NCBI RefSeq assembly: GCF_900129635.1 | Contig: NZ_FSRB01000002.1 | Coordinates: 2,894,498-2,934,497, forward strand | Origin: Singulisphaera sp. GP187 | GTDB lineage: Bacteria; Planctomycetota; Planctomycetia; Isosphaerales; Isosphaeraceae | Reading direction: 5' to 3' | Length of the DNA stretch: 40,000 nucleotides | In this document: positions 17,258 through 39,332 of the stretch, one piece after another | How the letters are laid out: each line of letters begins with the position of its first letter | How positions within the stretch are numbered: the first letter of the stretch is position 1 | The notes under the pieces: generated by a model | What the model was told of the DNA's origin: nothing | What the model saw: only the letters and a program-made list of their open reading frames with translations | Databases searched by the model: none | Program-made: the position numbers and the translations under genes

Positions 17258-17971
17258 ATGGGCCACAAAAGACCGGCCGTTGTCCTCCTCAGCGGCGGAC
17301 TGGACTCGACGACGACATTGGCTCTCGCCCATCGGGACGGTTTCGACCTCTTCGCCCTGAGCTTCCGTTACGGGCAGCGTCATCTTGCCGAGCTCGAGGC
17401 TGCCCGTCGGGTGGCTGAGAGGCTCGGCGTCGTGAAACACATCATCGCGGACATCGACCTGCGTCAGTTCGGAGGCTCCGCCCTGACCTCGGATCTCGAC
17501 GTTCCCAAGGGACGGACACCAAACGAGATGGGTGCTGGGATACCCGTCACGTATGTCCCGGCCAGGAACACGGTCTTCCTTTCCTTCGCCTTGGCCTGGG
17601 CCGAGGTCCTGGGATCGACCGACATCTTCATCGGGGTTAACGCTCTTGATTACAGCGGTTATCCCGACTGCCGTCCGGAATTCATCGCGGCTTTCGAGTC
17701 AATGGCGAACCTAGCCACGAAAATGGGCGTCGAGGGATCGCGGCCTCTCACCATCCACACCCCCCTGATCGCCCTGACCAAGGCCGAGATCATCAGGACG
17801 GGGATCGAGTTGGGTGTGGACTATGCGATGACGGTGACTTGTTACGATCCCTCTCCCGGCGGCGAAGCCTGTGGAGCCTGTGACGCGTGCCTCTTGCGTC
17901 GAAAGGGATTCGAGGAGAACGGTCTGAGCGACCCGGCTCGTTACGTTTCGGAAACCGCGGTGGTCCCATGA
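17258..17971 (+). CDS. queC: 7-cyano-7-deazaguanine (preQ0) synthase
   Basis: PP-loop '[12 protein letters not shown]' and C-terminal Zn-Cys cluster '[20 protein letters not shown]'. ATG at 17258 preceded by AGAGAGG. Confidence 0.95.
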
Positions 17972-18606
17972 GCTACGCAGTCAAGTCCATCTTCTACACG
18001 CTCCAAGGTGAGGGGGCGAACACCGGCCGACCGGCTGTCTTCTGCCGGTTTGCGGGGTGCAACCTCTGGTCAGGACGTGAGGAAGACCGGCTCACCGCGA
18101 AGTGCTCGTTCTGCGACACCGATTTCGTGGGGACGGACGGACCTGGGGGTGGGCGGTTCCACTCGGCCGGGGAGCTGGCACAGGCGGTCCTGGGTTACTG
18201 GCCTAGCCCGCCGGCCGTTGGGCGGCCATTCGTCGTCTGCACGGGCGGTGAACCGCTCTTGCAACTAGACGAAGCCCTCGTCGTGGCCCTGCACGACCAC
18301 GGTTTCGAGATCGCCGTCGAGACCAACGGCACCGTCCGACCGCCCCGCGGACTGGACTGGATCACGGTCAGCCCGAAAGCCGGGTCGGACTTGGTCATTC
18401 AGGCCGGTCAAGAGTTGAAGCTGGTTTTCCCTCAGGCAGGGCTACGGCCGGAGCCCTTCGAGGGGCTGGATTTCCGCCACTTCTTCCTCCAGCCCATGGA
18501 TGGGACGGAGGCCGAGGTTAACACCCGGCTCGCCGTGCGGTACTGCCTTGAGCACCCGTGTTGGAGGTTGAGCCTCCAGACCCACAAGATGCTGGGGATC
18601 CCCTGA
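17968..18606 (+). CDS. queE: 7-carboxy-7-deazaguanine synthase (radical SAM)
   Basis: '[27 protein letters not shown]...(14 aa between Cys)...CSFCDT' is the C-x14-C-x2-C cluster variant. The ATG at 17968 overlaps the queC stop (ATGA). Confidence 0.93.
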
Positions 18607-19448
18607 TGCTTGACCTGACGGGTGGTGTGAATGACACGCGGGGAACGGAGCCGCTGGTCGACGTCCAGAACCACGCCGACGATCGATGCGTCCCCATCGA
18701 CCAGGTCGGGGTGAGCAATCTGCGTTACCCGATCGTGGTGCTTGACCGTGCCAACCAGAAGCAACCGACCGTGGCGAGCCTGTCGATGTCGGTCAACCTG
18801 CCCCACCACTTCAAGGGGACGCACATGAGCCGCTTCGTCGAGGTGCTGAACGAGCACCGCGGTGAGGTGACCATGTTCACGCTTCCCGCGATCCTTGACG
18901 GGCTGAGGTCGCGGCTTCAAGCCGAGAGTGCCCGCATCGAGGTCCGGTTCCCTTACTTCCTGGAACGCGTGGCCCCGGTTAGTGGGGCTCGAGCCCTGAT
19001 GGGTTACGATTGCTCATTCATCGGCGAAGCGAGCGAGGCTGGGGAGGACTTTGTGCTGGGCGTACGGATACCCGTGACCAGCCTCTGCCCGTGCAGCAAG
19101 GCGATCAGCGATTACGGGGCCCACAACCAGCGGGGGCACGTGACGATCGAGGTGCGTGGGGGACAAAACGGTGGGACGGGTCCCGAACTCATCTGGATCG
19201 AGGAACTGGTCGAGGTAGCGGAGCGGTCCGCGTCAGCCCCGGTGTTCGCCCTGCTGAAGCGGGAGGACGAGCGGTTCGTGACGATGCAGGCCTACGACAA
19301 CCCGGCGTTCGTCGAGGACATCGTGCGGAATGCGGCCCTCATCCTCCGCGTGGATGAACGAATCACCTGGTTCCGGGTCCACGCGGAGAATCAGGAAAGC
19401 ATCCATAACCACGATGCGTTCGCCCAGGTCGAGTGGGCCCGAATCTGA
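18606..19448 (+). CDS. folE2: GTP cyclohydrolase FolE2/MptA type (GCYH-IB)
   Basis: 'GTHMSRF' and 'CPCSKAISDYGAHNQRG'. The ATG at 18606 overlaps the queE stop (TGATG). Confidence 0.9.
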   Translation: MLDLTGGVNDTRGTEPLVDVQNHADDRCVPIDQVGVSNLRYPIVVLDRANQKQPTVASLSMSVNLPHHFKGTHMSRFVEVLNEHRGEVTMFTLPAILDGLRSRLQAESARIEVRFPYFLERVAPVSGARALMGYDCSFIGEASEAGEDFVLGVRIPVTSLCPCSKAISDYGAHNQRGHVTIEVRGGQNGGTGPELIWIEELVEVAERSASAPVFALLKREDERFVTMQAYDNPAFVEDIVRNAALILRVDERITWFRVHAENQESIHNHDAFAQVEWARI

Positions 19449-19616
19449 CCGGAATACCCGGGTCTATCGACGGGCAGCGGGAATTGTTCGAAGGAATTCG
19501 TCCATCACGCGGCTTCGCATGGGTAGCAACTCGGAGTTTTTCCAGCATTAATGATGCGAGAACTAGATGCTCCTTGCGACTTCCCGGCCCGATATCGCCT
19601 GGATTGAGCTATCGAG

Positions 19617-19862
19617 ATGACTACGATCAGAGAATCCATGGAGGCCATCGGTTTCGGGATGCCTGCGGTTGTTGCACTCTCCCCTGACCTGAGGCGTGCT
19701 TATCAGCACTTCGCCGAATGGAAGCTGGATACTCATTGCGGGTCCGAGTGCCAGAAGCTGTTAGACCTGGCAACCCCTCTGCTGGAAGCCGCTGACCCGG
19801 CGGCCCGTCCTGAACTTTGGCGAGGAATCGTTTCCGCCATGGCGATCATTTGCGTAGGCTAG
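19617..19862 (+). CDS. Small hypothetical protein (81 aa)
   Basis: ORF with GC3-biased codons ending 15 nt before the TGT-fusion gene. No recognisable motif and no QueD-type His motifs. Confidence 0.4.
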   Translation: MTTIRESMEAIGFGMPAVVALSPDLRRAYQHFAEWKLDTHCGSECQKLLDLATPLLEAADPAARPELWRGIVSAMAIICVG

Positions 19863-19877
19863 GTTTCGAGGAACTGC

Positions 19878-21941
19878 ATGACGCGGATTCTAGTGGTCAC
19901 TTCCTGCACGGGCGAGAAGCTCGTCGAGACCAATGGTGCTCTGACCCTCGATGACTTCCAACAAGGCGGGGACCATCTTGCTCAACGTGAACGGAGCCTT
20001 TGCGAGTTCATGACCCCGGCTGAGACCCTGTACACCGGCCAGCAGCATGTCCGGCTCATGCGAGGAGTTCGGGCCTTTCGAGACAACTCCCGAGAAGTAA
20101 GTCGGAAGGATAACCTAGAACTTTGGGTCATCTCGGCCGGTTACGGCTTGATCCCTGGCGATCGCAAAATTGCCCCGTATGAATGCACGTTCCAGGGGAT
20201 GAGAACCAAGGCCCTTCGGTCGTGGGCAGATCAGCTCGGGGTGCCGGCGGCTATCCGAAAGCTCCTCGCACGGCCCTTCGACCTGGCCTTGATCAACCTG
20301 GGAGATGCCTATCTCGAGGCATGCCACTTGGGCCCGGACGTGACGCTCGGAGGGCCAACCATCTTGTTCTGCGGGACGACGGCGGCCAAACGCTTGCCCC
20401 GCCTGGATCAACTTCGCGTCGTGACGCTCTCCAACCCGCAAGCCAAGCGGTTCTCGTGCGGCTTGGTGGGGCTGAAGGGGGAGGTCTCGGGACGGATCCT
20501 TGAGCGGATGGCCCAGGAACCCGAGGCCATGCTGCGGCAATCCGTCGACCCAATGATCGACGTCCTCGACATTCTGGATGGTTCGGCGTCCCCTGTGAAG
20601 GCCACAAGGGCGAAGGCTAGGGTCAATCCGGTCGTCGATCGGGTGATCACAATCCCCGTTCCGTGGCGGCAGAAGCCACACCGTGATCGGCTCCGCTACT
20701 TCATCCCCGAGTGGGACGACCTGGTTGATCCCGAGTACGATTTCGAAACCGATACCCATTCGGGAGGCTCTGGCGACTGGTCGAATCAGGTCTACGCACA
20801 CCAGATGTATCCCGAGCCCAACTATGACGGGATCCTCGTCTCCAAGGTCGTCGCGGAGAAGAGTAAGAAGAAGAAAGAGCGGATCAACGCCCTCGGCGTC
20901 CATCGGTTTCTCAGAGTCCCGCCCGATTTCCCGGTCATGGGGGACTGCGGGGCTTTCGGGTACATCCAGCAGGAACATCCGCCTTACTCGACCGAGGAGA
21001 TTCTCGATTACTATACCCGCCTTGGCTTCGATTATGGGGTCTCCGTCGACCACCTCATCGTGACTGCGACGACAGCTCAGAAGCAGCATCGTTACGAGTT
21101 GACGATCCATAACGCTGAGGAGTTTCTCAAGGAGCACCGGAAACGACGATTGCCGTGGGAGCCGATCGGTGCCGTTCAGGGCTGGGACGCCAAGAGCTAT
21201 ACCGAAGCAGCCCGCAAGGTCGTCAAGATGGGGTATAATTACATCGCACTAGGCGGTTTGGTCAGGACATCCACATCCGACATCCTGACGATCCTCGAAG
21301 ACGTCCATCACGTCGTGCCGGATGGCGTACAGGTCCACCTCTTCGGGCTCGCCCGGCTAAACGCAATATCCAATTTTGCCAGGCTGGGCGTGAATTCGGT
21401 CGATAGTGCCTCCTACCTCCGCCAGGCATGGATGCGGATCGGCCAGAGCTATCTTTCAGAGCACGGTGCATATGCCGCTCTGAGGATACCCGAGGCTGGC
21501 AAAAGCTTCCGTGCAAAGCAAATGACGGGTCACGCCGAGCTCAGTGAAACCCGCATCCAGAGCCTCGAGCAATCCGCGATTGGGAGCGTCCGAGCCCTTG
21601 CCCGGGAGAAATGCTCGGTCGAGACCTGCCTGGATCATCTGCTCGAATACGATCGCTTCGTCACGAGCGACCGGGTCAATATGACAGATTTGTATCGCCG
21701 AACGCTCACGGACCGCCCCTGGGAACGGTGCCCCTGCAACATCTGTCGCCGATGGGGCGTCGAGGTTATCATCTTCCGGGGCAACAACCGCAACCGACGG
21801 CGGGGCTTCCACAACACCTACGTGTTTTACGATCTGCTTCAGAAAGCCCTGCGAGGGGACTCGGTTGATCTCCAAGACACGACGGCGGAAGAGGCGGAGG
21901 AACTTCCTCTCTTTGCGTCGATCCCGGGGCAAGCAATTTGA
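19878..21941 (+). CDS. Fusion protein: uncharacterised N-terminal domain (about 1-230) + TGT-family (DpdA-like) transglycosylase with Zn-binding subdomain
   Basis: N-terminus: 'ILVVTSCTGEK...LYTGQQHVRL...WVISAGYGLIPGDRKIAPYECTF'. TGT part: 'GDCGAFGYI', 'IALGGLVR', 'VHLFGLARL', 'VNSVDSASY', and Zn motif 'CPCNIC...(21 aa)...H'. ATG at 19878 preceded by GAGGAA. Confidence 0.85.
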   Translation: MTRILVVTSCTGEKLVETNGALTLDDFQQGGDHLAQRERSLCEFMTPAETLYTGQQHVRLMRGVRAFRDNSREVSRKDNLELWVISAGYGLIPGDRKIAPYECTFQGMRTKALRSWADQLGVPAAIRKLLARPFDLALINLGDAYLEACHLGPDVTLGGPTILFCGTTAAKRLPRLDQLRVVTLSNPQAKRFSCGLVGLKGEVSGRILERMAQEPEAMLRQSVDPMIDVLDILDGSASPVKATRAKARVNPVVDRVITIPVPWRQKPHRDRLRYFIPEWDDLVDPEYDFETDTHSGGSGDWSNQVYAHQMYPEPNYDGILVSKVVAEKSKKKKERINALGVHRFLRVPPDFPVMGDCGAFGYIQQEHPPYSTEEILDYYTRLGFDYGVSVDHLIVTATTAQKQHRYELTIHNAEEFLKEHRKRRLPWEPIGAVQGWDAKSYTEAARKVVKMGYNYIALGGLVRTSTSDILTILEDVHHVVPDGVQVHLFGLARLNAISNFARLGVNSVDSASYLRQAWMRIGQSYLSEHGAYAALRIPEAGKSFRAKQMTGHAELSETRIQSLEQSAIGSVRALAREKCSVETCLDHLLEYDRFVTSDRVNMTDLYRRTLTDRPWERCPCNICRRWGVEVIIFRGNNRNRRRGFHNTYVFYDLLQKALRGDSVDLQDTTAEEAEELPLFASIPGQAI

Positions 21942-23158: not shown

Positions 23159-23166
23159 GCGGTCCG

Positions 23167-24960: not shown

Positions 24961-25027
24961 ACGGGGTCATGACGGCAACAGAAATGAACGTGTTTCGGGA
25001 TTTCTGAAACCACGAAATGGTGCATCA

Positions 25028-26860: not shown

Positions 26861-26993
26861 TGCAATCAAATGAGCCGCAATTTAATTATTATAACGTTTT
26901 AAACGTATAATTACATTTGGTGTGGTCGGCTAAGTCTGGGGTTGAACTAAAGAAGCGGCGGAGTTTGTAGGAACTACCGTCCGGGGGCGACTC

Positions 26994-29318: not shown

Positions 29319-29321
29319 TCG

Positions 29322-31305: not shown

Positions 31306-31307
31306 TA

Positions 31308-31678
31308 AGGCCCGGAACGAGAATGTCATCCTCCCCGACCCGGGCAGCGAGGACGAGAAGATCCTCCGGGAATGGGCCGGGAAAGGAAGGGACGAACAAC
31401 CCCCTCTGCTGTCACTCGGGTTTCGTCTCAAGCGAGCCATCCGGGTGATCCCCATCTCCGAGGAATCCGAGGCGGAGTCGCTCAGGGCGTTCGACGACAC
31501 GGTCGCAAGGATCGAGAAATGCGTCGCGGAAGAGGCCAGGACGGGCCGTGTCATCGCCTCGTGGGAGAAAAATCCCCATAACGAGCCAACCTGCGTGGCG
31601 TGTGACTCGAAGACTTACTGCCCAGATCACAAGAAGGATACTTCCCCTCGACTTCCTGGTGTCAAGGTAACGCCTTGA
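31308..31678 (+). pseudogene. 3' portion of the interrupted Cas4/RecB-like nuclease gene
   Basis: In frame with 29322..30108 once 30109..31307 is removed. Carries the terminal Cys cluster 'PTCVACDSKTYCP'. Confidence 0.8.
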
Positions 31679-31699
31679 GGGGCTGAGTCAATCAGCCCC
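31679..31699. terminator. Perfect 8-bp stem hairpin GGGGCTGA-gtcaa-TCAGCCCC between convergent genes
   Basis: Read directly. There is no flanking U-tract on either strand, so the terminator role is tentative. Confidence 0.4.
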
Positions 31700-31738
31700 G
31701 GCCGCTTCACTTGACCCCAGAGTGACAACCTATGACCC

Positions 31739-32659: not shown

Positions 32660-35151
32660 GGTTCTTGCGATCTCCCGCCCGGGGACGGGGCTTCGAACCA
32701 GAGGTCCCGCAGGTTGATCGGGCCTGACGACCGGTCGTTCTCGGTCGTGTTCACTGCCGCGTAGAGTGATCGATCACCCCGGGCGAGGCGGACGGCCAGG
32801 ACATGCTTGCACGTCTGGCCTTTCCTAGCGTCCGGGCAATCGCAAACCCAGTCCGATCCCTGCTGCCTCACCACGTGCGGTTCGAGCCCTCCCCAGACGT
32901 GATACGTACCCTCGCCGGCGGGTCGGAGCTTGAGGTCCAGGGAACGGCGGAGTCGATAGGGATCGATCCCGTGACTCTTCCATTCCGGGGCTTCCGGAAA
33001 TGTCGGTGCCGACGCACGGGATTCACGGTACCAGTAGGCGGATCGCGTCCGGACGAGATCGACGGCGGCTTCCGTCCATTTCCGGGCACGACGCAAGGAC
33101 ATCCCCGGCATCGCGGCCAGGGTTTCCGGTTCCGCCTGGGCGAGAGATTCCAGATCGGTGATCTCCGCCAACTTGAGCCGGCGGGCCCAGGCGGGTCCCA
33201 GGCCCGGGATCAGGGTCAGCGTGATGACCTCCTCGTCGAGACCGGCCTGCACCATCCGTTGAAGAGCGTGAATCTTCTCCGCCAAGCTCACCTCCTGTTC
33301 GATCGACGGGGAGTTCTGGTCGTCCTCCGTCTTCTCAATCCGCTGGATGTCGGCCATCGCGGTGAGTAGGCGTTCGAGAGACTCCTTCAGACGGAGTATC
33401 TCGAACGGGTAACAACCGGAGAGTTCCGCCACCTGTTCCGCGTCCCCGGTGCGTGTCCAGGCTCGGCCCACGCTCGCCATCTTCAAAGCCGCCAGGAGCC
33501 GTTTCCCCCTAACCCCGAGGCGTTGTTCCAGATCGGATCGGGCCTTGCCCAAGAATTGCGAGTTCTCACGAGCGAGGGCGTCCGCCAAGTCGTCGAGCTC
33601 CTCGAAATCGACCGGCAGCACCGGCTCGCAGTCGGAACTCGATGCGGCGATGAGCAAGAGGTCCAGGAAGGATGCCGCGGGTTCGTCCTCCAGGGCGGCC
33701 TGGAAGAGCTGGACGGTCGCCGGTTCCAGGAGGTGGCGTGCCGCGATCCGTCCCAGTCGCGTGGGAAGGAGCCGGATCTCCCCGGAACCCGGCTCGCGAT
33801 CCGTGTCGTCGCGAACCAGATCCGCCTCTTGCATCTGCCAGAGGAGTTTGTTGAGGTCGGGCAATCGGTCCTGGTGGGCCGCGAGCGATTGCCCGAAGGT
33901 GCGGCTCAATTGTCCGGCGGTCCGGGAGAGCCCGCTACTGAGCTCCGCCAAGATCTGCTCCGCGAGGTACCGTGGTTGGCACAGGCCCGAACGGACCGGC
34001 TCGAAGATTCCCCGAGAGTAGCCGTCCGCCGCCCGGTCCCACGTGGGCGTCAAGAGGACCGCCTCGCCAGACGGGTCAAGGCCGGGCCTGCCCGCACGGC
34101 CGACCCTCTGCCAGACCTGGTTGGTGGGGAGCGGCCGGAACTCGCCGCCATCGAAGAACTGCACGTCGTAGAGCACGACCTGTCGGACCGGCAGATTCAA
34201 CCCCATCTCGAGGGTGGATGTCGCCACGAGCACGTCTAACGTCCCACGTCGGAATCCGTCCTCGATCTCCTTCCGAGAGGCATGGTTCAGGCCGGCGTGA
34301 TGGTGTCGGGCTCGAAGACCCTTTTCTGCCAAGAACCGACTCAACCCTTCGGCCCGCCGCCGGCTCTGGACGAAGACCAGGCTCTTGCCACCCTGTTCCA
34401 CGCACCGGCATACCTCGGCCCAGAGTAGCTCCGGCTTCTCGTCGGCCTTGCGGAAGCGGACGATCCGCCAGTCGATCGGGATTGGCCGCCAGTCGGAGGT
34501 AAACTCCACGCCCTGGAGCCACGATGCCAGCTCCACCCGGTTACCCAGGGTCGCGGAAAGTCCCAAGACCTGGACGAACGGGTTGAGACGCTGGAATCGC
34601 GAGATGGCCCCCTCCAGGCGGGCACCACGTTGCCGATCGCCCAGGAGGTGAATCTCGTCCACGACCAGCAGGTCCACCTCCGGAATCCAGCCCCAGTGGG
34701 ACCGCCAGGATCGCGTGCAGGCATCCAGTCGCTCCGGGGTCATGACCAGCAACCGAGCGTCGTAGTAGCTGACTGGGTAGGGCCGTTTGGAAGTCCCGTA
34801 CTCACCCGTGAAGACGCCCACCGGTGAAGGGTCGAATCGATCCCGCCAGCGATCCATCAATTCGGTGGCCAGGGCCCGCAAAGGCGTGAGGTAAATCGCC
34901 CTCCTGCCCCGCCCCAGCACCTGGGCGATGGATTGTTCGGCCAGCCAGGTCTTCCCGCTTCCGGTCGGCATCTGGAGGACGCAGCTGAACCCCGAATCGA
35001 TCAGCCCGCGTTCCAAGATGGCGGCTTGGGGTGGAGTCAGTGACAAGAATAATCCTCCAGGCCTTGAGGTAGCCGAATGAGTTCCGAAGGCGTCTTGATG
35101 CGGGGCCGAACGTTGGGGGCCGATGAAAGCATAACCGCCGAAATCGGTCAA
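32635..35151 (-). CDS. Ski2/Hel308-like DEAD/DEAH-box SF2 helicase with HhH region and C-terminal SWIM zinc finger
   Basis: 'QMPTGSGKTW', 'LTPLRALA', 'VVDEIHLLG', 'GLSATLGN', 'QRVGRAGRPG'. SWIM finger 'WVCDCPDARKGQTCKHVLAV'. There is no in-frame ATG before motif I. The likely start is TTG at 35046 (GGAGGA 6 nt upstream), not the TTG at 35151. Confidence 0.9.
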   Translation of the reverse strand: MTDFGGYAFIGPQRSAPHQDAFGTHSATSRPGGLFLSLTPPQAAILERGLIDSGFSCVLQMPTGSGKTWLAEQSIAQVLGRGRRAIYLTPLRALATELMDRWRDRFDPSPVGVFTGEYGTSKRPYPVSYYDARLLVMTPERLDACTRSWRSHWGWIPEVDLLVVDEIHLLGDRQRGARLEGAISRFQRLNPFVQVLGLSATLGNRVELASWLQGVEFTSDWRPIPIDWRIVRFRKADEKPELLWAEVCRCVEQGGKSLVFVQSRRRAEGLSRFLAEKGLRARHHHAGLNHASRKEIEDGFRRGTLDVLVATSTLEMGLNLPVRQVVLYDVQFFDGGEFRPLPTNQVWQRVGRAGRPGLDPSGEAVLLTPTWDRAADGYSRGIFEPVRSGLCQPRYLAEQILAELSSGLSRTAGQLSRTFGQSLAAHQDRLPDLNKLLWQMQEADLVRDDTDREPGSGEIRLLPTRLGRIAARHLLEPATVQLFQAALEDEPAASFLDLLLIAASSSDCEPVLPVDFEELDDLADALARENSQFLGKARSDLEQRLGVRGKRLLAALKMASVGRAWTRTGDAEQVAELSGCYPFEILRLKESLERLLTAMADIQRIEKTEDDQNSPSIEQEVSLAEKIHALQRMVQAGLDEEVITLTLIPGLGPAWARRLKLAEITDLESLAQAEPETLAAMPGMSLRRARKWTEAAVDLVRTRSAYWYRESRASAPTFPEAPEWKSHGIDPYRLRRSLDLKLRPAGEGTYHVWGGLEPHVVRQQGSDWVCDCPDARKGQTCKHVLAVRLARGDRSLYAAVNTTENDRSSGPINLRDLWFEAPSPGGRSQEPWNRPHEI

Positions 35152-35164
35152 TCAGAGTAGGCGT

Positions 35165-35194
35165 TTGGTATTCCGAACGCCGACAGATTATAAT
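35165..35194 (+). promoter_or_regulatory. Sigma70-like promoter candidate: TTGGTA (35165-35170), 18-nt spacer, TATAAT (35189-35194)
   Basis: Read directly. The spacer and -35 region include the inverted repeat GGCGTT-N10-AACGCC. It lies 22 nt upstream of the GTG/GGAGG start of the HTH gene, in the divergent intergenic region. Confidence 0.4.
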
Positions 35195-35215
35195 GATCGA
35201 TGTGCGGAGGTATCC

Positions 35216-35785
35216 GTGGACGCGAACGATCGGGCTGCCGAGAATCTCCGGTACTTGCTCTTTACTCGCGGGGAGCCTCGCGCGCTCTGGGCGGATCGAG
35301 TGACGGAGTGGGCTGGCTGCGACCGTCGCCGTGCCATGCGACTCCTCCGTTCTGGCCGGTTCACACCGAGCGAGCAAGACCGGATCACCAGGGTTTGCGA
35401 AGTCTCGACCGAGGAGTTGCGGTTCGGACGACTCGTCCCCGACCGGCCGGATTTGATTCTCCAAGAGAACCTTCGCTATTTGCTGGACATCCTGGAACAC
35501 GGCGAGCAGAAGCGTCTGGCGGGACTGCTTGAGATGGAGACGGGTACGGTCTCTCGGTGGCGGGGGGGCAAGCAACTCCCCGAGCGGAAGACACAGGCAG
35601 CATTGGCCCGCTACTTCGGTCTCCCCCCAGGGACGGACCTCCAGGCCGACCCGGTCTTCCTGTCCTACCCGCCGGCCGACGAACGTCAGAGACGACATTG
35701 GCTCCGGGAGCGGATCGAGTCCATCTCGCCGGACCTACTTGGGGAACTCTTCCCCGCCCTGGAACGACTCCTCGAGGACGAATGA
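35216..35785 (+). CDS. Tandem-HTH (two XRE-like units) putative regulator
   Basis: Internal duplication 'ENLRYLLFTRGEPRALWADRVTEWAG...' and 'ENLRYLLDILEHGEQKRLAGLLEMETGTVSRWRGG'. GTG at 35216 with GGAGG 5 nt upstream; the ORF-track start at 35165 is TTG inside the putative -35 box. Confidence 0.7.
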   Translation: MDANDRAAENLRYLLFTRGEPRALWADRVTEWAGCDRRRAMRLLRSGRFTPSEQDRITRVCEVSTEELRFGRLVPDRPDLILQENLRYLLDILEHGEQKRLAGLLEMETGTVSRWRGGKQLPERKTQAALARYFGLPPGTDLQADPVFLSYPPADERQRRHWLRERIESISPDLLGELFPALERLLEDE

Positions 35786-38148
35786 GAAGGCTTGACTGCG
35801 GCACAACAGGGACCACTGGACGGCAAACCCCTCCAGACTGGTCGGCATTCGGGCTGCTCCCTCCCTGGGATCAGGTCGTAGAACTCCTTGCCCCAGCGAC
35901 CCGCCCCCGATCAATCCAGGTCAAGGCTCTCGGCGAATTACGGGTGTTGGACGGGCGACGGAACTTGATCGTGGCGGCCCCAACCAACGGAGGGAAGAGC
36001 CTCGTCGGCCTGCTGATGCTCCTGGAGGCAGTGCGGCGAGGCCGACGTGCCATCCTGCTCGAGCCCCTGCGGGCAATCGCCCGGGAGAAGTATGACGAAT
36101 TATCACCGCTCGTCCCCGGGCTCGGGCGTTTGCTGGGCCGTCCGGTCGAGGTCCGCCTGACCACCGGCGACTATCGCCTGGACGACGAGTTCTTCTCGCA
36201 GGCCCCTCCAAGGTCGGGTGAGCTGATCATCGCGACTCCCGAGCGGCTGGACGCGATCCTCCGTAACGCGGCCCACGAGGATTGGGTCGCCACGATCGGG
36301 GCAGTCTGCCTGGACGAGGCTCACCTGATCGGTTCGACGCACCGTGGGCCGGTCCAGGAATTCCTTCTCACCTCGCTCCTCTGCCGCCCCGAACCCCCGC
36401 GGCTGATCTTGCTGTCGGCCACAATCGGGCAGCCGGACCGGATTCAAGCCTGGCTCGCTCCCTGCGACGTGGTGCACGAGGGCGATCGGAACCCGCCCCT
36501 GCACAAGGAAGTGCTGGCCCTGGATCCGGGCGAGGATCCCTCCCAAGCATCGGTCGATTGGGCCCGGAGAGTACTGGACGATCCCGGTGCCTCCGCCCTC
36601 ATCTTCGTCTACCAGACGAGGTCGGCCGAGAAGTTGGCCCGACAGATCCACGAATCGATCGACGGGGCGGCGGGGCCGGTGGGTCCGCTGGCTTACCACG
36701 CCCAACTCAGCATGCAACGCCGCCGTGAGGTCCGAGAGGCTTACGCCTTGGGTGATTGCCGCTGCGTGGTGACGACCACGGCGTTGGCCTTGGGGGTCAA
36801 CCTGCCGGCAACCCACGTCCTGGTCCGCGACAGTACGTTTCCGGGTGTCGGTCCCCTACCGACGGCGGAGTTGCTCCAGATCCTGGGTAGGGCCGGTCGG
36901 CAGGATCGGGCCGGTCGGGGGTCGGTCCTGCTCCGCCCCGAAGACGCCTGGCAGCCGTCCGAACTGTCCTCCGCCCTGAGAGACGAGACGGTCCTTCCGC
37001 TGACGTCTTCCTTTGATAGATCCATGGCTCGGTTCTCGCGAACTCGGCCTCCCAATATCGCTGAACTCGAGCCGCTTGCCACCGCCATCGCAGGCCTCCT
37101 GGCCCGGTCGCCCGAGGAAGGATGTCGCCTCGAAGACCTGGAAGTCTTCATGCGACGGAGCCTCGGAGGAAGTGGTCTCGTGGGGCTACTCGGCCCAGGG
37201 CTCTCGTGGCTGTGCGATCCGTCCCGTCGGCTCGCCTTTCGGGATGAGCTGGGCCGATATCGCCTGACGGTGCTCGGCCGGAATGCGACCAAAGCCGTCC
37301 TGCCACTGCCGGTCGCGGCTGGCGTGGGGCAGTTGTTTCGGGACCTGCTGAGCCTCGATCCCGAAGACGACATCCTAGCCGGCTGGGGCCCCTTGGACCA
37401 TCTCATCGCCCTGGACCTGCTGTCGGGCCGGTCCCCCCGGCTCCGGAGTTTCAGTCAGCGATTGGGTGAGCAACTGGAGGGCTGGATGGAGGCCCACCCG
37501 GATTCCCCCTCAGTGCTATATCGCCGCTGGATTGTTGGCCAGTCCGGCTTCTCGCGGGCCGAAGAGGTTTTCGGTTCCCTCGGACTGGTCCCCGAGGCAA
37601 ACGGTAAGGTGGACGGGGTCGAGGCGGCACGCCGCATGGCCTATCTGTCCGTTTTCCGGTCGGTGGTGCTCTTAGAAAGGGGCCGGGGACAGGTCATAGC
37701 CGATCTGGAGCGACGGTGGTCCGTGACGGGTCTCGAGGGGGTCGAGGAACGCTGGCGGGACGACGTAATCTGGCTCGCGACGTCATTGGCCCGCACCCTA
37801 GAACTGAGGTGTTTCTATCATCATCTAGTCGAGTCTTGCGGGGCTAACGAAGGGCGAATCCGGAGGGTGCGAGGCATCCTGAGGCAATTACGTCAGCAAC
37901 TCTACGAATTGCAGGACCATCTGAAATATTGCTCACCGTTGGGTCCGGTGCTCCGTGGGCTCCGCCGGGTCATCAATCCCGGCCAGGGGAACCTTGCGGG
38001 GGTGCAGACGATCCGGCGGCTGGAGGAGTCCGGGATCCGGACCCTGGCCGATCTGGCGAAGTCGACGGAGGAGGATCTGGTCCGCCTGGGGATCCAGCGG
38101 CGATTCGCGGCCCAGATCCTGACGTACGTGCGACGTCGGCTCCAATAA
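35782..38148 (+). CDS. Ski2-like DEAD/DEAH-box SF2 helicase with C-terminal HhH
   Basis: 'APTNGGKS', 'LEPLRAIA', 'CLDEAHLIG', 'LLSATIG', 'QILGRAGRQD'. C-terminal HhH: 'IRRLEESGIRTLADLAKSTEEDLVRLGI'. The ATG at 35782 overlaps the HTH gene stop (ATGA). Confidence 0.9.
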   Translation: MRRLDCGTTGTTGRQTPPDWSAFGLLPPWDQVVELLAPATRPRSIQVKALGELRVLDGRRNLIVAAPTNGGKSLVGLLMLLEAVRRGRRAILLEPLRAIAREKYDELSPLVPGLGRLLGRPVEVRLTTGDYRLDDEFFSQAPPRSGELIIATPERLDAILRNAAHEDWVATIGAVCLDEAHLIGSTHRGPVQEFLLTSLLCRPEPPRLILLSATIGQPDRIQAWLAPCDVVHEGDRNPPLHKEVLALDPGEDPSQASVDWARRVLDDPGASALIFVYQTRSAEKLARQIHESIDGAAGPVGPLAYHAQLSMQRRREVREAYALGDCRCVVTTTALALGVNLPATHVLVRDSTFPGVGPLPTAELLQILGRAGRQDRAGRGSVLLRPEDAWQPSELSSALRDETVLPLTSSFDRSMARFSRTRPPNIAELEPLATAIAGLLARSPEEGCRLEDLEVFMRRSLGGSGLVGLLGPGLSWLCDPSRRLAFRDELGRYRLTVLGRNATKAVLPLPVAAGVGQLFRDLLSLDPEDDILAGWGPLDHLIALDLLSGRSPRLRSFSQRLGEQLEGWMEAHPDSPSVLYRRWIVGQSGFSRAEEVFGSLGLVPEANGKVDGVEAARRMAYLSVFRSVVLLERGRGQVIADLERRWSVTGLEGVEERWRDDVIWLATSLARTLELRCFYHHLVESCGANEGRIRRVRGILRQLRQQLYELQDHLKYCSPLGPVLRGLRRVINPGQGNLAGVQTIRRLEESGIRTLADLAKSTEEDLVRLGIQRRFAAQILTYVRRRLQ

Positions 38149-38163
38149 CCCCGCGGGATGAAC

Positions 38164-38190
38164 CCGGGCGAAGGTGGTGGGTTCGCCCGG
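38164..38190. terminator. Perfect 9-bp stem hairpin CCGGGCGAA-N9-TTCGCCCGG between convergent genes
   Basis: Read directly. No U-tract. Confidence 0.4.
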
Positions 38191-38231
38191 AGAGAACGCG
38201 AAACAGCTCACGCCCATCTCGTCGGATGAAT

Positions 38232-39332
38232 TCAGTCATCCAGCCAGGTCCGGAGTCGGGCGTGGCGGAGTCGACCCGATTTGGCCGCTTCGTCCTGGCC
38301 TGTGATCAGAGCACGACGACCCAGGTAGCCCGGGTTCAGGTGTGGGGTGTCCGGCCGATAGGTTTGGGTCATAGCCCGTCTCTCCGTGTCGCTCCATGAG
38401 GAGACCCAGGCGACGGTCCGAACAGACCCATCCGATTGACGGGTGCCGAATTCTAGGGCTCCGACCAACTTCTCGTGACCGTGGCCCGGGGTACCCGGCT
38501 TGGATCCGGTGACGAAGGCTTCGACCGTGGTCTCCCGTTTGCGTTTGAGCCAGTGACCGACCCGACGGCCCGGCTCGTAGGGTTCGTCCAGTTGTTTCCA
38601 GACCGTCCCCTCCCCGCCGGCATCGAGGATACGGTCGTGGATGCTGGGTCGGCCGATGGTGAAGGTCGGGACGGGCTCCAGGTGGGGATTATCTGCCTCG
38701 GCGAGAGCTTGGGTCAGGATGTCGAGTCGGTCCCGGAGTGGCTCCCGGGTGACGTCGGTGCCCCTGAAATTCAGGATGTCGAACGCGTGGAACCGGAGGC
38801 GGTTTTCGGGTTGAGTCTGCATCTGACGGGCCTGCTCGGGGCTGGTGGACAGGATCGCCGTTGCGGCCTGGAGTGGGTGTTGGGCGATGGTCCGGCCGGT
38901 GTCGAGAGATGAGGCCGGAAAGACCAACTCACCGTCCAGGATGCTGCCGTCGAGCCGGGAGAGCCCGGTCGTGAGGTGAAGCAGGTTGGCTTGAAACTCG
39001 CCCAGGCGGTAGGTGACCTCGCTGACGCAACGGCTGGTGATGCGGACCTGGGGACCCTCTACGTGCAGCAGAGCTCTTACCCCGTCGAGCTTGGGGGAGA
39101 CGACCCAGCCAGGTCCGTGTTCGATCCGACGGGCGTCTTCTGGGATGAGATCGGACCAGTTGCCCAGGAGCATGGGCTGGACCTGAGGCGGGAGCGGCCT
39201 GCCTGGGTGGTTCTTGAGCCAATGGTAATTCCGCAAGGCGGCGATGTAGGGTTCTTTGCTCGGTCGACCGTGAGAGGCCACCTCTATCCTGAGGGTGGCA
39301 CATTCCCGTTGCAGTTCGGATAGCGACTTCAT
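38232..39332 (-). CDS. ATP-dependent DNA ligase (adenylation + OB domains)
   Basis: Motif I 'SPKLDGVR', motif III 'LDGELVF', motif IIIa 'FHAFDIL', motif IV 'EGTVWK', motif V 'HWLKRK'. ATG at 39332. Confidence 0.9.
   Translation of the reverse strand: MKSLSELQRECATLRIEVASHGRPSKEPYIAALRNYHWLKNHPGRPLPPQVQPMLLGNWSDLIPEDARRIEHGPGWVVSPKLDGVRALLHVEGPQVRITSRCVSEVTYRLGEFQANLLHLTTGLSRLDGSILDGELVFPASSLDTGRTIAQHPLQAATAILSTSPEQARQMQTQPENRLRFHAFDILNFRGTDVTREPLRDRLDILTQALAEADNPHLEPVPTFTIGRPSIHDRILDAGGEGTVWKQLDEPYEPGRRVGHWLKRKRETTVEAFVTGSKPGTPGHGHEKLVGALEFGTRQSDGSVRTVAWVSSWSDTERRAMTQTYRPDTPHLNPGYLGRRALITGQDEAAKSGRLRHARLRTWLDD

What the first reader, a model, noticed from the sequence alone, without database searches (positions are those of the whole stretch)
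17258..39332. Non-canonical 7-deazaguanine (Dpd-like) DNA modification/restriction island
What the sequence shows:
- A complete-looking queC-queE-folE2 operon with overlapping start and stop codons lies 430 bp upstream of, and on the same strand as, a TGT-family paralogue (19878..21941).
- A second TGT paralogue sits at 31739..32659.
- Around them are four DNA motor proteins (a HerA-like ATPase, a UvrD-family helicase and two Ski2-like helicases).
- Three nuclease or ligase functions are also present: NurA-like, Cas4/RecB-like and an ATP-dependent ligase.
- There are two HTH regulators.

Established knowledge: in the Dpd system described in Salmonella enterica serovar Montevideo, a TGT paralogue (DpdA) inserts preQ0 into DNA with the help of the ATPase DpdB. 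DpdC converts the inserted base to the 7-amido derivative, and a helicase-rich DpdD-K module restricts unmodified DNA.

Inference: this island has the same logic (preQ0 supply + DNA transglycosylase + helicase/nuclease module) but different parts. I see no ParB-like DpdB, no obvious DpdC and no queD. It does carry HerA/NurA, UvrD/Cas4-like, a ligase and two TGT paralogues. As far as I know this architecture has not been described.
Basis: partly seen in the sequence, partly recalled or inferred. Interest (0 to 1): 0.9.

Follow-up and report, generated by a model that had tools for sequence, protein, structure and literature searches.

The report
Variant 7-deazaguanine DNA modification-restriction island
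This stretch of a Singulisphaera (Planctomycetota) chromosome carries a widespread but apparently undescribed version of the bacterial Dpd system, which marks the cell's own DNA with 7-deazaguanine, here joined to DNA-cutting and DNA-unwinding modules different from those of the known system.

Summary

**What holds**
- The 687-aa "TGT paralogue" is a true bacterial DpdA. It scores 445 bits on the NCBIfam equivalog (cutoff 200) and E 1e-80 to the Salmonella DpdA crystal structure.
- There is no DpdB, no DpdD-K and no queD.

**Corrections**
- The DpdA is fused to a DUF6884/DpdC-like domain, so a DpdC-like part is present.
- The Cas4/RecB-like nuclease gene is split by an IS630-type element.
- One of the two "HTH regulators" is that element's transposase.
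- The ligase is not a conserved neighbour.

**Conservation**
The layout recurs across at least eight phyla: preQ0 genes, DpdC::DpdA, NurA-like, HerA-like, a variable ~600-aa protein, UvrD and PD-(D/E)XK, then convergently a small zinc-less TGT paralogue with a Hel308-SWIM helicase, and an HTH with a second Hel308. In other genomes the same fusion pairs with canonical DpdE-H. This suggests the new modules take the restriction role.

**Status**
I found no paper describing this. The function is inferred, not shown. I rate it a new variant of a known kind, of moderately high interest. The helicase-coupled second TGT is the strangest part.

The parts
17258..17971 (+). queC (preQ0 synthase)
   Evidence: Pfam QueC 252 bits. 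Overlaps the queE start by ATGA.
17968..18606 (+). queE (CDG synthase, radical SAM), assigned by position and orthology
   Evidence: Radical_SAM match is sub-threshold at 26.2 bits against a cutoff of 29.5. It is 58-70% identical to the gene between queC and queD/folE2 in L008, L009 and L012.
18606..19448 (+). folE2 (GTP cyclohydrolase IB)
   Evidence: Pfam GCHY-1 312 bits. The TGATG junction with queE leaves no room for queD.
19617..19862 (+). small 81-aa ORF in the folE2-dpdA gap; lineage-specific, role unknown
   Evidence: 69% identical to an 81-aa gene at the same position in L166 only.
19878..21941 (+). DUF6884/DpdC-like domain (aa 1 to ~210) fused to bDpdA DNA-guanine transglycosylase (aa ~253-659)
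   Evidence: NCBIfam DpdA equivalog 444.7 bits, cutoff 200. PDB 7UI4 at E 1e-80. PADLOC DpdC and Pfam DUF6884 hit the N-terminus. C10/K14, S86-G90, D356, D509 and the zinc ligands C618/C620/C623/H645 are invariant.
21938..23158 (+). NurA-like nuclease (RNase H/PIWI-like fold); its TTG start overlaps the dpdA stop
   Evidence: AF2 model pLDDT 89. Foldseek top hits are NurA 2YGK at E 2e-8, TdpAB 8WFD and HerA-NurA complexes. In 5 of 5 independent look-ups it sits between the fusion and HerA. Overlap shown.
23167..24960 (+). HerA-like hexameric ATPase/translocase
   Evidence: Pfam DUF87 57 bits. PADLOC HerA models. Nearest solved structures are T. kodakarensis and S. solfataricus HerA. The translation shows GRTGSGKS, which I read as a Walker A motif.
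25028..26860 (+). fast-evolving 610-aa protein of unknown function; low G+C (~0.50); possibly restriction-endonuclease-like end domains
   Evidence: No Pfam, PADLOC, NCBIfam or PHROG hit. 548 relatives among 50%-identity representatives. AF2 pLDDT 92 but only weak PD-(D/E)XK/REase-like fold hits. It occupies a variable slot between HerA and UvrD. G+C.
26994..29318 (+). UvrD/PcrA-family SF1 helicase
   Evidence: Pfam UvrD-helicase 158 bits. PADLOC GajB-like.
29322..30134 (+). PD-(D/E)XK (Cas4/AddB-like) nuclease gene, 5' part (aa 1-274 of about 385)
   Evidence: Pfam PDDEXK_1. tblastn with intact homologues from L002, L012, L021 and L009.
30105..31309 (-). IS630-like insertion sequence (transposase ORFs 30730-31218 and 30146-30733) disrupting the nuclease gene; an intruder, not a part of the system
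   Evidence: DDE_3 and HTH_32/HTH_23 domains. 34-nt terminal inverted repeats, 85% complementary.
31328..31678 (+). PD-(D/E)XK nuclease gene, 3' part (aa ~273-384, containing a Cys cluster)
   Evidence: tblastn with intact homologues, 57% identity to L002. Sequence read.
31739..32659 (-). TGT2: a 306-aa TGT-superfamily paralogue that keeps the catalytic Asp pair and base pocket but lacks the zinc subdomain
   Evidence: Pfam TGT 84 bits. tgt_general 77.6 bits, but below the cutoffs for Tgt (56.8 vs 306.75), TgtA (55 vs 350) and DpdA (46.8 vs 200). Alignment to Z. mobilis TGT. Conserved residues. Directly downstream of Hel308-SWIM in 30 of 32 loci.
32635..35151 (-). Hel308/Ski2-like helicase with HhH and C-terminal SWIM zinc finger; its 3' end overlaps the TGT2 start
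   Evidence: DEAD, Helicase_C, HHH_5 and SWIM domains. Archaeal Hel308 2P6R at E 1e-64. Overlap read.
35165..35785 (+). HTH protein (XRE-like), conserved partner of the helicase pair
   Evidence: HTH_31 match is sub-threshold (26.2 bits vs 27). Conserved in 26 of 32 TGT2-side loci.
35782..38148 (+). second Hel308/Ski2-like helicase; its ATG overlaps the HTH stop (ATGA)
   Evidence: DEAD and Helicase_C domains. Present in 27 of 32 TGT2-side loci. Overlap read.
38232..39332 (-). ATP-dependent DNA ligase: adjacent, but not a conserved member of the system
   Evidence: DNA_ligase_A_M 87 bits and phrog_114. No homologue beside the fusion in 80 genome loci. Seen only in the close relative L084.

Best explanation
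This is a non-canonical member of the Dpd type of 7-deazaguanine DNA modification-restriction systems. It is horizontally mobile and is built from swappable modules.

**Modification arm**
- FolE2, QueE and QueC make preQ0 from GTP. QueD must be supplied from elsewhere in the genome.
- The bDpdA domain of the 687-aa protein exchanges guanine in DNA for preQ0.
- The fused DUF6884/DpdC-like domain has an invariant Cys in its CxxxK motif. It either hydrates the nitrile to give dADG, as DpdC does, or helps bind and flip the target base.
- There is no DpdB. The ATP-dependent DNA opening that DpdA needs in Salmonella is therefore either dispensable for this fusion clade or supplied by a neighbouring motor. 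HerA is the most likely candidate, because its partner gene is translationally coupled to dpdA.

**Restriction arm**
The following take the place that DpdD-K occupy in the canonical system and attack DNA lacking the mark:
- the NurA-HerA translocase-nuclease;
- the variable ~600-aa protein with UvrD and the PD-(D/E)XK nuclease;
- the TGT2/Hel308-SWIM/HTH/Hel308 set.

**What is shown and what is inferred**
- Shown here: protein family identities, conserved catalytic residues, gene overlaps, cross-phylum synteny, and interchangeability with DpdE-H.
- Inferred: that the DNA is modified, which product is made, which module restricts, and who supplies the ATPase.
- In this genome the helicase-nuclease module is probably disabled by an IS630 insertion.
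For: **The DpdA is genuine.**
- NF041059 scores 444.7 bits against a cutoff of 200.
- PDB 7UI4 'DNA-guanine transglycosylase' matches at E 1e-80 over the full domain.
- The catalytic Asp residues and the zinc ligands are invariant in 18 homologues.

**The N-terminal domain is DpdC-like.**
- All 23 fusion N-termini tested hit PADLOC DpdC models, over the first ~104 of ~300-319 positions.
- They hit Pfam DUF6884 and carry its CxxxK and SAGYG motifs.
- DpdC is annotated as DUF6884/DUF328 in the literature.
- DpdB is required for DpdA in vitro in the canonical system.

**The fusion is widespread.** Relatives occur in 244 species genomes. The best 80 loci are all full-length fusions.

**The modules recur.**
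- NurA and HerA lie directly adjacent in about 20 of the 80 loci.
- UvrD and PD-(D/E)XK occur in 14-21 loci.
- The variable protein occurs in 12 loci.
- The TGT2/Hel308 set occurs in about 12 loci.
- One Anaeromyxobacter locus (L012) holds every module in a single compact cluster.

**Reverse tests agree.**
- All 5 NurA-like homologues looked up lie between the fusion and HerA.
- Of 32 TGT2-side metagenome loci of at least 9 kb, 30 have Hel308-SWIM and 21 have further modules in the same order as the window.

**The modules are interchangeable with canonical ones.** In other genomes the same fusion sits next to canonical DpdE/F/G/H (PADLOC E down to 1e-233) or next to a DndB-family protein plus a DpdJ-like helicase.

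**NurA and HerA are genuine.**
- The NurA fold is confirmed, including similarity to TdpAB.
- HerA is closest to the archaeal HerA that partners NurA.

**Other points.**
- Start/stop overlaps link dpdA to nurA, Hel308-SWIM to TGT2, and HTH to Hel308b.
- The system sits in an island with transposases and other nuclease and helicase genes.
- Fusions are 60-65% identical between phyla, which indicates horizontal transfer.
Against: - No chemistry or phenotype is available. 7-Deazaguanine in DNA and restriction are both untested.
- queD is missing from the island, so preQ0 supply depends on an unseen gene. However, L166 has the same queD-less operon.
- The DpdC similarity covers only the first third of DpdC. 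The N-terminal profile finds no solved structure.
- The modules occur in many different combinations. They may therefore be semi-independent rather than one machine.
- Hel308-SWIM/TGT2 pairs occur without a DpdA within 10 kb in a few loci: L094, L104, L131 and L161.
- The 610-aa protein has no significant fold match.
- HerA-NurA, UvrD and Hel308 are classical repair proteins, so a repair role is not excluded.
Confidence: 0.65

Rival explanations
1. This is a mosaic defence island. On this view the DpdC::DpdA plus preQ0 genes, NurA-HerA, UvrD-nuclease and Hel308/TGT2 are three or four independent systems. They sit together only because defence genes cluster.
For: - The modules occur in many combinations and can be absent one by one.
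- Hel308-SWIM/TGT2 occurs beside Hachiman, a C5-methylase and a GHKL ATPase with no DpdA within 10 kb in L094.
- The window is rich in other nuclease, helicase and transposase genes.
Against: - The same gene order and orientation recurs in Planctomycetota, Chloroflexota, Verrucomicrobiota, Myxococcota, Acidobacteriota, Bacteroidota, Pseudomonadota and Bacillota.
- The NurA-like family was found only beside the fusion: 18 of 18 and 5 of 5 cases.
- The nurA start codon overlaps the dpdA stop codon.
Confidence: 0.15
2. The motors and nucleases are a dedicated repair or processing crew for the modification reaction, not a restriction arm. On this view they open duplex DNA for DpdA and TGT2 and then clear abasic sites, nicks or covalent enzyme-DNA intermediates that base exchange creates. 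The island is then an epigenetic marking system without self/non-self killing.
For: - HerA-NurA, UvrD and Hel308 are canonical repair and resection factors.
- DpdA needs an ATPase partner in the known system, and none of the DpdB type is present here.
- A DNA ligase is adjacent in this genome and in the close relative L084.
Against: - In other genomes the same fusion pairs with the canonical restriction genes DpdE-H at the equivalent position.
- The set includes a PD-(D/E)XK nuclease and a fast-evolving ~600-aa protein. This protein has possible restriction-endonuclease-like domains and tandem paralogues, which is typical of specificity or effector parts of defence systems.
- The ligase is not conserved.
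- The distribution is sporadic and horizontally transferred.
Confidence: 0.13
3. These are housekeeping genes: queuosine/tRNA modification genes plus ordinary DNA-repair genes that happen to be neighbours.
For: - queC, queE and folE2 are also used for tRNA queuosine synthesis.
- TGT2's best sequence matches in the PDB are bacterial tRNA TGTs, at E 1e-11.
Against: - The large TGT is a DpdA equivalog, not a Tgt. It scores 27.7 bits on Tgt against a cutoff of 306.75.
- TGT2 scores 56.8 against 306.75, lacks the zinc site, and is always operonic with a helicase.
- The context is island-like, with an IS element, and identity between phyla is high.
Confidence: 0.02

Closest known systems
Dpd system of Salmonella enterica serovar Montevideo (DpdA-K; Thiaville 2016, Yuan 2018, Gedara 2023)
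   Same: - It has an orthologous bDpdA transglycosylase, ~45% identical to the crystallised protein.
- It has a DpdC-type DUF6884 domain.
- preQ0 biosynthesis genes lie in the cluster.
- It sits in a mobile-island context.
- It has a helicase-rich neighbourhood in the position of the restriction operon.
- Relatives of the same fusion do sit next to canonical DpdE/F/G/H.
   Different: - No DpdB (ParB/DndB-like ATPase) is present.
- The DpdC-like part is fused to DpdA and matches only the first third of DpdC.
- No DpdD-K is present. Only generic helicase-core similarity is seen, for example 26.7 bits on NF041063 DpdF against a cutoff of 550.
- In their place stand NurA-HerA, a variable ~600-aa protein, UvrD with PD-(D/E)XK, and a second TGT paralogue with two Hel308 helicases.
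- Searches that require dpdA plus dpdB, such as GATOR-GC, would miss it.
HerA-NurA translocase-nuclease complexes: archaeal and Deinococcus end resection, and the TdpAB pair of the phosphorothioate-based Tdp system
   Same: - The genes are adjacent, with a HerA-family ATPase carrying what I read as a Walker A motif.
- NurA has an RNase H/PIWI-like fold.
- From my own knowledge, plus the PDB title of 8WFD: TdpAB is a HerA/NurA-type pair that serves as the restriction arm of a DNA-modification system. That is the role proposed here.
   Different: - Sequence identity to any solved NurA is only 10-14%.
- The family is annotated everywhere as 'hypothetical'.
- It is linked to dpdA, not to mre11/rad50 or to a phosphorothioation gene.
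- No biochemical data exist.
BREX-related capture (BRC) systems with HerA/FtsK, TGT and GNAT (PMC12839542)
   Same: It is another proposed defence system that combines a HerA-type translocase with a TGT homologue and lacks DpdB and DpdC.
   Different: - BRC has PglZ, a BrxC-like ATPase, a STAND NTPase and DUF4007, and no NurA.
- None of those components is present here.
- This system has a true bDpdA, which BRC is not described as having.
tRNA-guanine transglycosylases (bacterial Tgt, archaeal TgtA) and phage DpdA1-4, as comparators for TGT2
   Same: - TGT2 has the TIM-barrel TGT domain.
- Both catalytic aspartates are kept. I map D70 and D241 to Asp102 and Asp280 of Z. mobilis TGT by combining the alignment with my own knowledge of that enzyme's numbering.
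- The base-pocket residues D123, Q165 and G190-G191 are also conserved.
   Different: - TGT2 is only about 306 aa and has no CxCxxC...H zinc subdomain.
- It scores below every equivalog cutoff.
- It shows only faint PHROG matches.
- It is encoded immediately after, and overlapping, a Hel308-SWIM helicase gene.
AddAB/AdnAB-like helicase-nucleases and Gabija GajB (UvrD) modules
   Same: A UvrD-family SF1 helicase is followed by a PD-(D/E)XK nuclease with a C-terminal Cys cluster. The helicase hits PADLOC GajB models at E 8e-36.
   Different: - No GajA-like OLD nuclease is present.
- The pair is preceded by an unrelated variable ~600-aa protein.
- It is linked to dpdA.

Membership tests
Dpd system (canonical, DpdA-K) | DpdA: a TGT-family DNA-guanine transglycosylase of the bacterial (bDpdA) clade | tested here: met
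   NF041059 scores 444.7 bits against a cutoff of 200. PADLOC DpdA at E 3e-122. PDB 7UI4 at E 1e-80. The catalytic Asp residues and zinc ligands are invariant.
Dpd system (canonical, DpdA-K) | DpdB: a ParB/DndB-like ATPase required for preQ0 insertion | tested here: not met
   No Pfam, PADLOC or NCBIfam hit among the window proteins scanned. A DndB HMM built from 11 loci finds nothing in the six-frame ORFs of at least 80 aa of the window, or in any NurA/HerA-type locus.
Dpd system (canonical, DpdA-K) | DpdC: a DUF328/DUF6884 protein that converts dPreQ0 to dADG | tested here: inconclusive
   The N-terminal domain of the fusion hits PADLOC DpdC models (E 2e-13) and Pfam DUF6884, and carries the CxxxK and SAGYG motifs. 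All 23 fusions tested do so. The match covers only positions 1-104 of ~300-319. There is no NCBIfam DpdC hit. Activity is unknown.
Dpd system (canonical, DpdA-K) | DpdD-K restriction genes (SNF2 DpdE, DEAD DpdF, DpdG, DpdH, DpdJ, PLD DpdK and others) | tested here: not met
   Only helicase-core similarity is seen. DpdF scores 26.7 and 25.3 bits against a cutoff of 550, and DpdE 25.4 against 500. By contrast, true DpdE/F/G/H were recognised at E 1e-233 to 1e-17 next to the same fusion in other genomes.
Dpd system (canonical, DpdA-K) | A source of preQ0 (FolE, QueD, QueE, QueC) | tested here: inconclusive
   queC, queE and folE2 are present. queD is absent from the window, although it is present in 31 of 80 related loci. 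The rest of the genome was not available.
Dpd system (canonical, DpdA-K) | dPreQ0 or dADG present in genomic DNA, and restriction of unmodified DNA | not testable with these tools
   This needs LC-MS/MS of DNA and transformation or phage assays.
HerA-NurA complex | A HerA/FtsK-family ATPase with Walker motifs | tested here: met
   Pfam DUF87 scores 57 bits. PADLOC HerA at E 8e-22. PDB HerA 9X1L at E 5e-14 and 4D2I at E 2e-12. GRTGSGKS is present in the translation, which I read as a Walker A motif.
HerA-NurA complex | A NurA nuclease with an RNase H/PIWI-like fold and acidic/His active-site residues, encoded next to HerA | tested here: met
   The AF2 model has pLDDT 89. Foldseek gives NurA 2YGK at E 2e-8, probability 1.00, followed by 8WFD, 9X1M, 3TAZ and 7F6D. 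D61, E96, D203 and H350/D351 are invariant. I infer, without a structural superposition, that these correspond to PfNurA D51/E105/D126/H411. The gene is adjacent to HerA in all loci.
tRNA-guanine transglycosylase (Tgt/TgtA), for TGT2 | Score above the equivalog cutoff, and a CxCxxC...H zinc subdomain | tested here: not met
   TIGR00430 scores 56.8 against 306.75, and TIGR00432 scores 55 against 350. There is no zinc motif in TGT2 or its 11 orthologues.
DpdA (any described subfamily), for TGT2 | A match to bDpdA or phage DpdA profiles | tested here: not met
   NF041059 scores 46.8 against 200. PADLOC DpdA matches only a 120-residue core. PHROG TGT families match at E 8e-6 and 2e-5 with no significant stretch. 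A full phylogeny was not run.
IS630 family insertion sequence | A DDE_3 transposase with N-terminal HTH, flanked by terminal inverted repeats | tested here: met
   DDE_3 and HTH_32/HTH_23 domains lie on two adjacent minus-strand ORFs. The 34-nt inverted repeats are 85% complementary. The host gene continues on both sides of the element.

The most novel reading that the evidence does not exclude
The Hel308-SWIM/TGT2 pair is a new kind of helicase-coupled DNA transglycosylase, working on the restriction side of the system rather than the writing side.

- The helicase would expose bases.
- The zinc-less TGT enzyme would then probe guanines.
- At unmarked sites it would excise or exchange the base, leaving abasic sites or covalent adducts that the NurA-HerA and UvrD-nuclease modules process.
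- 7-Deazaguanine at self sites would block the reaction. For bacterial tRNA TGT, from my own knowledge, guanine exchange is reversible but 7-deazaguanine insertion is not.

This would be self/non-self discrimination read out by a base-exchange enzyme. It would also be a second, DpdB-independent solution to opening duplex DNA for a TGT fold.
Probability: 0.25. Interest if true: 0.85.

Novelty: new variant of a known kind. Interest (0 to 1): 0.68.

Why it matters
**An open question made more tractable.** Dpd is described as the largest and most complex restriction-modification system known, and how its restriction arm works is unsolved. This variant keeps the DpdA writer but replaces everything else with modules whose relatives are structurally understood: HerA-NurA, UvrD with a PD-(D/E)XK nuclease, and Hel308. 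That gives a simpler route to asking how 7-deazaguanine marks are read.

**DpdB appears dispensable.** The variant shows that DpdB is not a fixed requirement of bacterial DpdA.

**A DpdC::DpdA fusion clade.** It occurs in at least 244 species.

**A fourth kind of TGT enzyme.** It is small, lacks the zinc site, is coupled to a helicase, and has unknown chemistry.

**A gap in current annotation.** Defence-system and genome-mining rules that require dpdA plus dpdB miss these loci, so 7-deazaguanine DNA modification is probably under-counted in environmental bacteria.

Tried and rejected
**Searches that found nothing useful**
- Profile searches of the NurA-like family, the 610-aa family and the DUF6884 N-terminal domain against PDB sequences found nothing significant.
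- The 610-aa model gave no significant match in the PDB or BFVD.
- Viral contigs hold no NurA-like relative and only 2 fusion relatives, so a phage origin was rejected.
- There are no tRNA genes in the window that might mark an integration site.
- The promoter and terminator scan was no better than shuffled sequence.
- The ligase and the GP88-like gene were tested as possible members and rejected, because they are not conserved.
- The 81-aa ORF is conserved only in the closest relative.

**Tools or papers that were unavailable**
- The 2016 PNAS and 2018 Mol Microbiol Dpd papers are not held. No paper on TdpAB could be read. Statements about TdpAB function therefore rest on my own knowledge plus the PDB title.

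**Literature searches**
Searches for DpdA with HerA or NurA, for DUF6884, and for recent DpdA papers found no description of this architecture.

**Housekeeping reading**
A housekeeping queuosine/repair reading was considered and rejected on family scores.

Full report
**Source and layout**

The window comes from Singulisphaera sp. GP187 (Planctomycetota, Isosphaeraceae). The 687-aa protein is 100% identical to an NCBI record from a 2.97-Mb contig of that strain. G+C is about 0.60-0.65 throughout, except for one gene at 25028-26860, which is near 0.50. ORF listing and four profile libraries give the map below.

| Coordinates | Strand | Gene |
|---|---|---|
| 17258-17971 | + | queC |
| 17968-18606 | + | queE |
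| 18606-19448 | + | folE2 |
| 19617-19862 | + | 81-aa ORF |
| 19878-21941 | + | 687-aa TGT-family protein |
| 21938-23158 | + | 406-aa NurA-like protein |
| 23167-24960 | + | HerA-like ATPase |
| 25028-26860 | + | 610-aa protein with no family hit |
| 26994-29318 | + | UvrD helicase |
| from 29322 | + | PD-(D/E)XK nuclease |
| 30146-31218 | - | two transposase ORFs |
| 31739-32659 | - | 306-aa TGT-family protein (TGT2) |
| 32635-35151 | - | Hel308-like helicase with HhH and SWIM |
| 35165-35785 | + | HTH protein |
| 35782-38148 | + | second Hel308-like helicase |
| 38232-39332 | - | ATP-dependent ligase |
| 39431-39934 | - | phage GP88-like gene |

Several start and stop codons overlap:
- queC/queE share ATGA.
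- queE/folE2 share TGATG.
- The dpdA stop overlaps the nurA TTG start.
- The HTH stop and the Hel308b start share ATGA.
- The TGT2 start lies inside the 3' end of the Hel308-SWIM gene.

**Corrections to the observation**

1. The PD-(D/E)XK gene is broken. Intact homologues of 384-429 aa align to 29322-30134 for residues 1-274, and to 31328-31669 for residues about 273-384.
2. Between those two pieces lies an IS630-like element. It has 34-nt terminal inverted repeats at 30105-30138 and 31276-31309. Its transposase carries HTH and DDE_3 domains.
4. The ligase and the GP88-like gene have no counterpart beside the system in 80 related genome loci. They appear only in the nearest relative, L084.

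**The large TGT protein is DpdC-like::DpdA**

*DpdA domain.* Residues about 253-659 score 444.7 bits on the NCBIfam DpdA equivalog, against a cutoff of 200. They align end to end with the crystallised Salmonella Montevideo DpdA (PDB 7UI4) at E 1e-80. By contrast they score only 27.7 bits on bacterial Tgt and 51.7 bits on archaeal TgtA. The GDCGAF aspartate (D356), the VDSAS aspartate (D509) and the zinc ligands C618/C620/C623/H645 are invariant in 18 diverse homologues.

*N-terminal domain.* Residues 1 to about 210 match Pfam DUF6884 and four PADLOC DpdC models. They carry the CxxxK (C10...K14) and SAGYG motifs that Pfam describes for DUF6884, a YaaA-like 'cantaloupe' fold suspected of flipping bases.

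*Link to DpdC.* The literature equates DpdC with DUF328/DUF6884. All 23 fusion N-termini tested hit DpdC models, but only over the first ~104 of ~300-319 profile positions. Whether the domain has DpdC activity remains open.

**What is absent**

- No DndB/ParB-like DpdB is encoded in the window. The Pfam, PADLOC and NCBIfam scans of the ORFs tested found none. An HMM built from DndB-family neighbours of other fusions finds nothing in the window's six-frame ORFs of at least 80 aa.
- None of DpdD-K is present. The two Hel308-like proteins touch the DpdF, DpdE and DpdJ models only through the generic helicase core, far below cutoff.
- queD is absent. There is no room for it, because queE and folE2 abut.
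- The related locus L166 has the same queD-less operon. This is therefore not a private defect of this genome.

**Conservation, searched from the fusion**

The 687-aa architecture is common. More than 120 near-full-length proteins at about 60% identity were listed. Relatives occur in 244 species genomes. These span Chloroflexota, Verrucomicrobiota, Pseudomonadota, Myxococcota, Acidobacteriota, Bacteroidota, Cyanobacteriota, Bacillota and Deinococcota.

tblastn and ORF clustering of the best 80 loci show several alternative partner sets.

| Type | Partners of the fusion | Where |
|---|---|---|
| I | NurA-like and HerA-like directly adjacent. Often also the 610-aa family (12 loci), UvrD (21), PD-(D/E)XK (14) and TGT2/Hel308-SWIM/HTH/Hel308b (about 12). 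| About 20 loci |
| II | An unknown 279-aa protein plus canonical DpdE/F/G/H | Mainly Cyanobacteriota |
| III | The 279-aa protein, a DndB-family protein, UvrD/PD-(D/E)XK and a DpdJ-like helicase | Mainly Cyanobacteriota |
| IV | Other unknown proteins, DpdE and a YhhQ-type transporter | Paenibacillus and relatives |
| V | TGT2/Hel308 set without NurA-HerA | Cyanobacteriota |

For types II-IV, the PADLOC matches reach E 1e-233 for DpdE, 1e-220 for DpdF and 1e-123 for DpdH. The DndB-family protein scores 288 bits on Pfam DndB.

One Anaeromyxobacter contig (L012) has UvrD, the nuclease, queC-E-D, folE2, NurA, HerA, the fusion, a distant 610-family relative, TGT2, Hel308-SWIM, HTH and Hel308b in one compact cluster.

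**Conservation, reverse tests**

*From the NurA side.* The NurA-like family has 586 members, all annotated 'hypothetical'. All 5 members looked up lie between a DUF6884+TGT fusion and a DUF87/HerA gene.

*From the TGT2 side.* A metagenome scan found 129 relatives. Among the 32 loci of at least 9 kb:
- 30 have Hel308-SWIM immediately upstream;
- 27 have the second Hel308;
- 26 have the HTH;
- 21 continue into PD-(D/E)XK, UvrD, the 610-aa family, HerA, NurA and the fusion, in the same order and orientation as the window.

*Exceptions.* Loci L094, L104, L131 and L161 carry TGT2 with no DpdA within 10 kb; three of them also have Hel308-SWIM, which is missing or truncated in L104. In L094 the pair sits beside a GHKL ATPase, Hachiman genes and a C5-methylase.

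*Phage origin.* The system is essentially absent from viral contigs.

**Individual parts**

*NurA-like protein.*
- Sequence evidence is weak (Pfam E 0.004).
- An AlphaFold2 model (pLDDT 89, pTM 0.88) finds NurA structures as its top PDB matches. These are S. solfataricus 2YGK at E 2e-8, the TdpAB complex 8WFD, and the T. kodakarensis and D. radiodurans HerA-NurA complexes, followed by Argonaute PIWI domains.
- Invariant D61 (GVDGSG), E96, D203 and H350/D351 fit the D/E/D/H active site of P. furiosus NurA. That correspondence is my inference, not a structural superposition.

*HerA-like protein.* It is closest to the archaeal HerA that partners NurA.

*The 610-aa protein.*
- It belongs to a large, very divergent family, with 548 representatives at 50% clustering.
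- It models confidently (pLDDT 92). It has only weak matches, below significance, to PD-(D/E)XK and restriction-endonuclease domains.
- The slot between HerA and UvrD is variable. It holds tandem paralogues in L081 and L164, a split copy in L083, a distant relative in L012 (hhalign probability 89%), and proteins with no tblastn similarity to it in L165 and L166.
- With its deviant G+C, this suggests an exchangeable specificity or effector cassette. That is an inference.

*TGT2.*
- It keeps the DSGG aspartate (D70), the substrate aspartate (D123), Q165, the GG pair (G190-G191) and the nucleophile-position aspartate (D241) of TGT enzymes. It has no CxCxxC...H zinc subdomain.
- It is below every equivalog cutoff.
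- Paenibacillus-type loci carry a different small TGT paralogue that does have the zinc motif.

**Most likely mechanism**

*Modification.* GTP is converted to preQ0 by FolE2, an off-island QueD, QueE and QueC. The DpdA domain swaps G for preQ0 in DNA. The fused domain either hydrates the nitrile to dADG or assists base flipping.

*The ATPase requirement.* Canonical DpdA needs ATP hydrolysis by DpdB. This fusion clade often has no DndB-family neighbour. Either the fusion is DpdB-independent, or a neighbouring motor supplies DNA opening. HerA is the best-placed candidate, given the dpdA-nurA-herA coupling.

*Restriction.* The same fusion pairs with DpdE-H in other genomes. The NurA-HerA, 610-aa/UvrD/nuclease and TGT2/Hel308 modules are therefore best read as alternative restriction arms. 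There is a precedent for a HerA/NurA-type pair acting as the modification-sensitive arm of a DNA-modification system: TdpAB. That statement rests on my own knowledge; the PDB entry appears.

*Caveat.* All functional steps are inferred.

*State in GP187.* The UvrD-nuclease arm is probably inactive because of the IS insertion.

**Rivals**

- *Chance mosaic of independent defence systems.* It is weakened by the cross-phylum synteny, the exclusive NurA-dpdA linkage and the gene overlaps.
- *Repair or processing role for the motors.* It remains possible.
- *Housekeeping reading.* It is excluded by the family scores.

**Novelty**

Searches of the held literature found no description of this architecture.
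- The nearest published system is a different HerA+TGT+GNAT BREX-related system.
- A recent dpd survey required dpdA plus dpdB and so would not retrieve these loci.
- Known DpdA subfamilies are bDpdA and DpdA1-4. TGT2 fits none of those tested here.
A brief earlier mention of the fusion or of variant clusters therefore cannot be excluded.

I rate this a new variant of a known kind. Interest is moderately high, and the helicase-coupled, zinc-less TGT paralogue is the most surprising element.

Noticed in passing
window 30105-31309 (with 29322-30134 and 31328-31678): An IS630-like element with 34-nt terminal inverted repeats splits the PD-(D/E)XK nuclease gene. The transposase is read as two adjacent ORFs. 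The helicase-nuclease module of this copy is probably inactive.
   Followed up: yes
window 25028-26860; L081, L083, L164-L166, L012: The 610-aa gene has G+C of about 0.50, against about 0.62 around it. It occupies a variable slot between herA and uvrD. That slot holds tandem paralogues, a split copy, or proteins with no detectable similarity of about 600 aa in other loci. This behaviour resembles an exchangeable specificity cassette.
   Followed up: partly
window 1-17258: The upstream half of the window is also island-like. It contains a Metallophos gene, an rve integrase/transposase (3088-4716), a WYL/WCX HTH regulator (5473-6558), a REase-ARP nuclease (7804-8664) and a Cas4-like PD-(D/E)XK (10181-11023). 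It also has an 830-aa Helicase_C protein (12296-14788), DUF932 (14802-15848) and a PAD_porph deiminase (16043-16945). DUF932 also lies upstream of the related cluster in L083.
   Followed up: partly
window 19617-19862: A small 81-aa ORF lies in the folE2-dpdA gap. It is 69% identical to an ORF at the same position in L166 and is found nowhere else among 166 loci.
   Followed up: yes
window 38232-39934; L084 1730-2104: An ATP-dependent DNA ligase (phrog_114) and a phage GP88-like gene flank the system. The ligase is also adjacent in the closest relative, L084 (93% identity), but in no other locus.
   Followed up: partly
L046, L049, L053, L056, L058, L063, L065, L067, L069, L074, L080 (for example L046 12903-13913): Paenibacillus- and Bacillus-type Dpd loci with the same fusion carry a different second small TGT paralogue of about 300 aa. 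It retains a CxCPxC...H zinc motif. It sits between two unknown proteins and a STAND-like or weakly DpdH-like ATPase.
   Followed up: partly
L032-L077, cyanobacterial loci (for example L050 12035-12874): A conserved 279-aa protein with no Pfam or PADLOC hit lies directly downstream of the fusion in 20 loci. There it occupies the position that NurA has in the window.
   Followed up: partly
L094 5651-20323; L104: A Hel308-SWIM/TGT2 pair occurs without any DpdA within 10 kb. It is flanked by a LON substrate-binding protein and a GHKL (HATPase_c_3) ATPase, and lies next to Hachiman (HamA plus a helicase) and a C5 DNA methylase. It may be an autonomous TGT2-based system.
   Followed up: partly
L081 and L082, 7096-7950: In one metagenomic relative, a gene with a weak Adenine_glyco (Tag-like DNA glycosylase) hit is inserted between folE2 and the fusion. 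PLD-like and SNF2 genes lie upstream.
   Followed up: no
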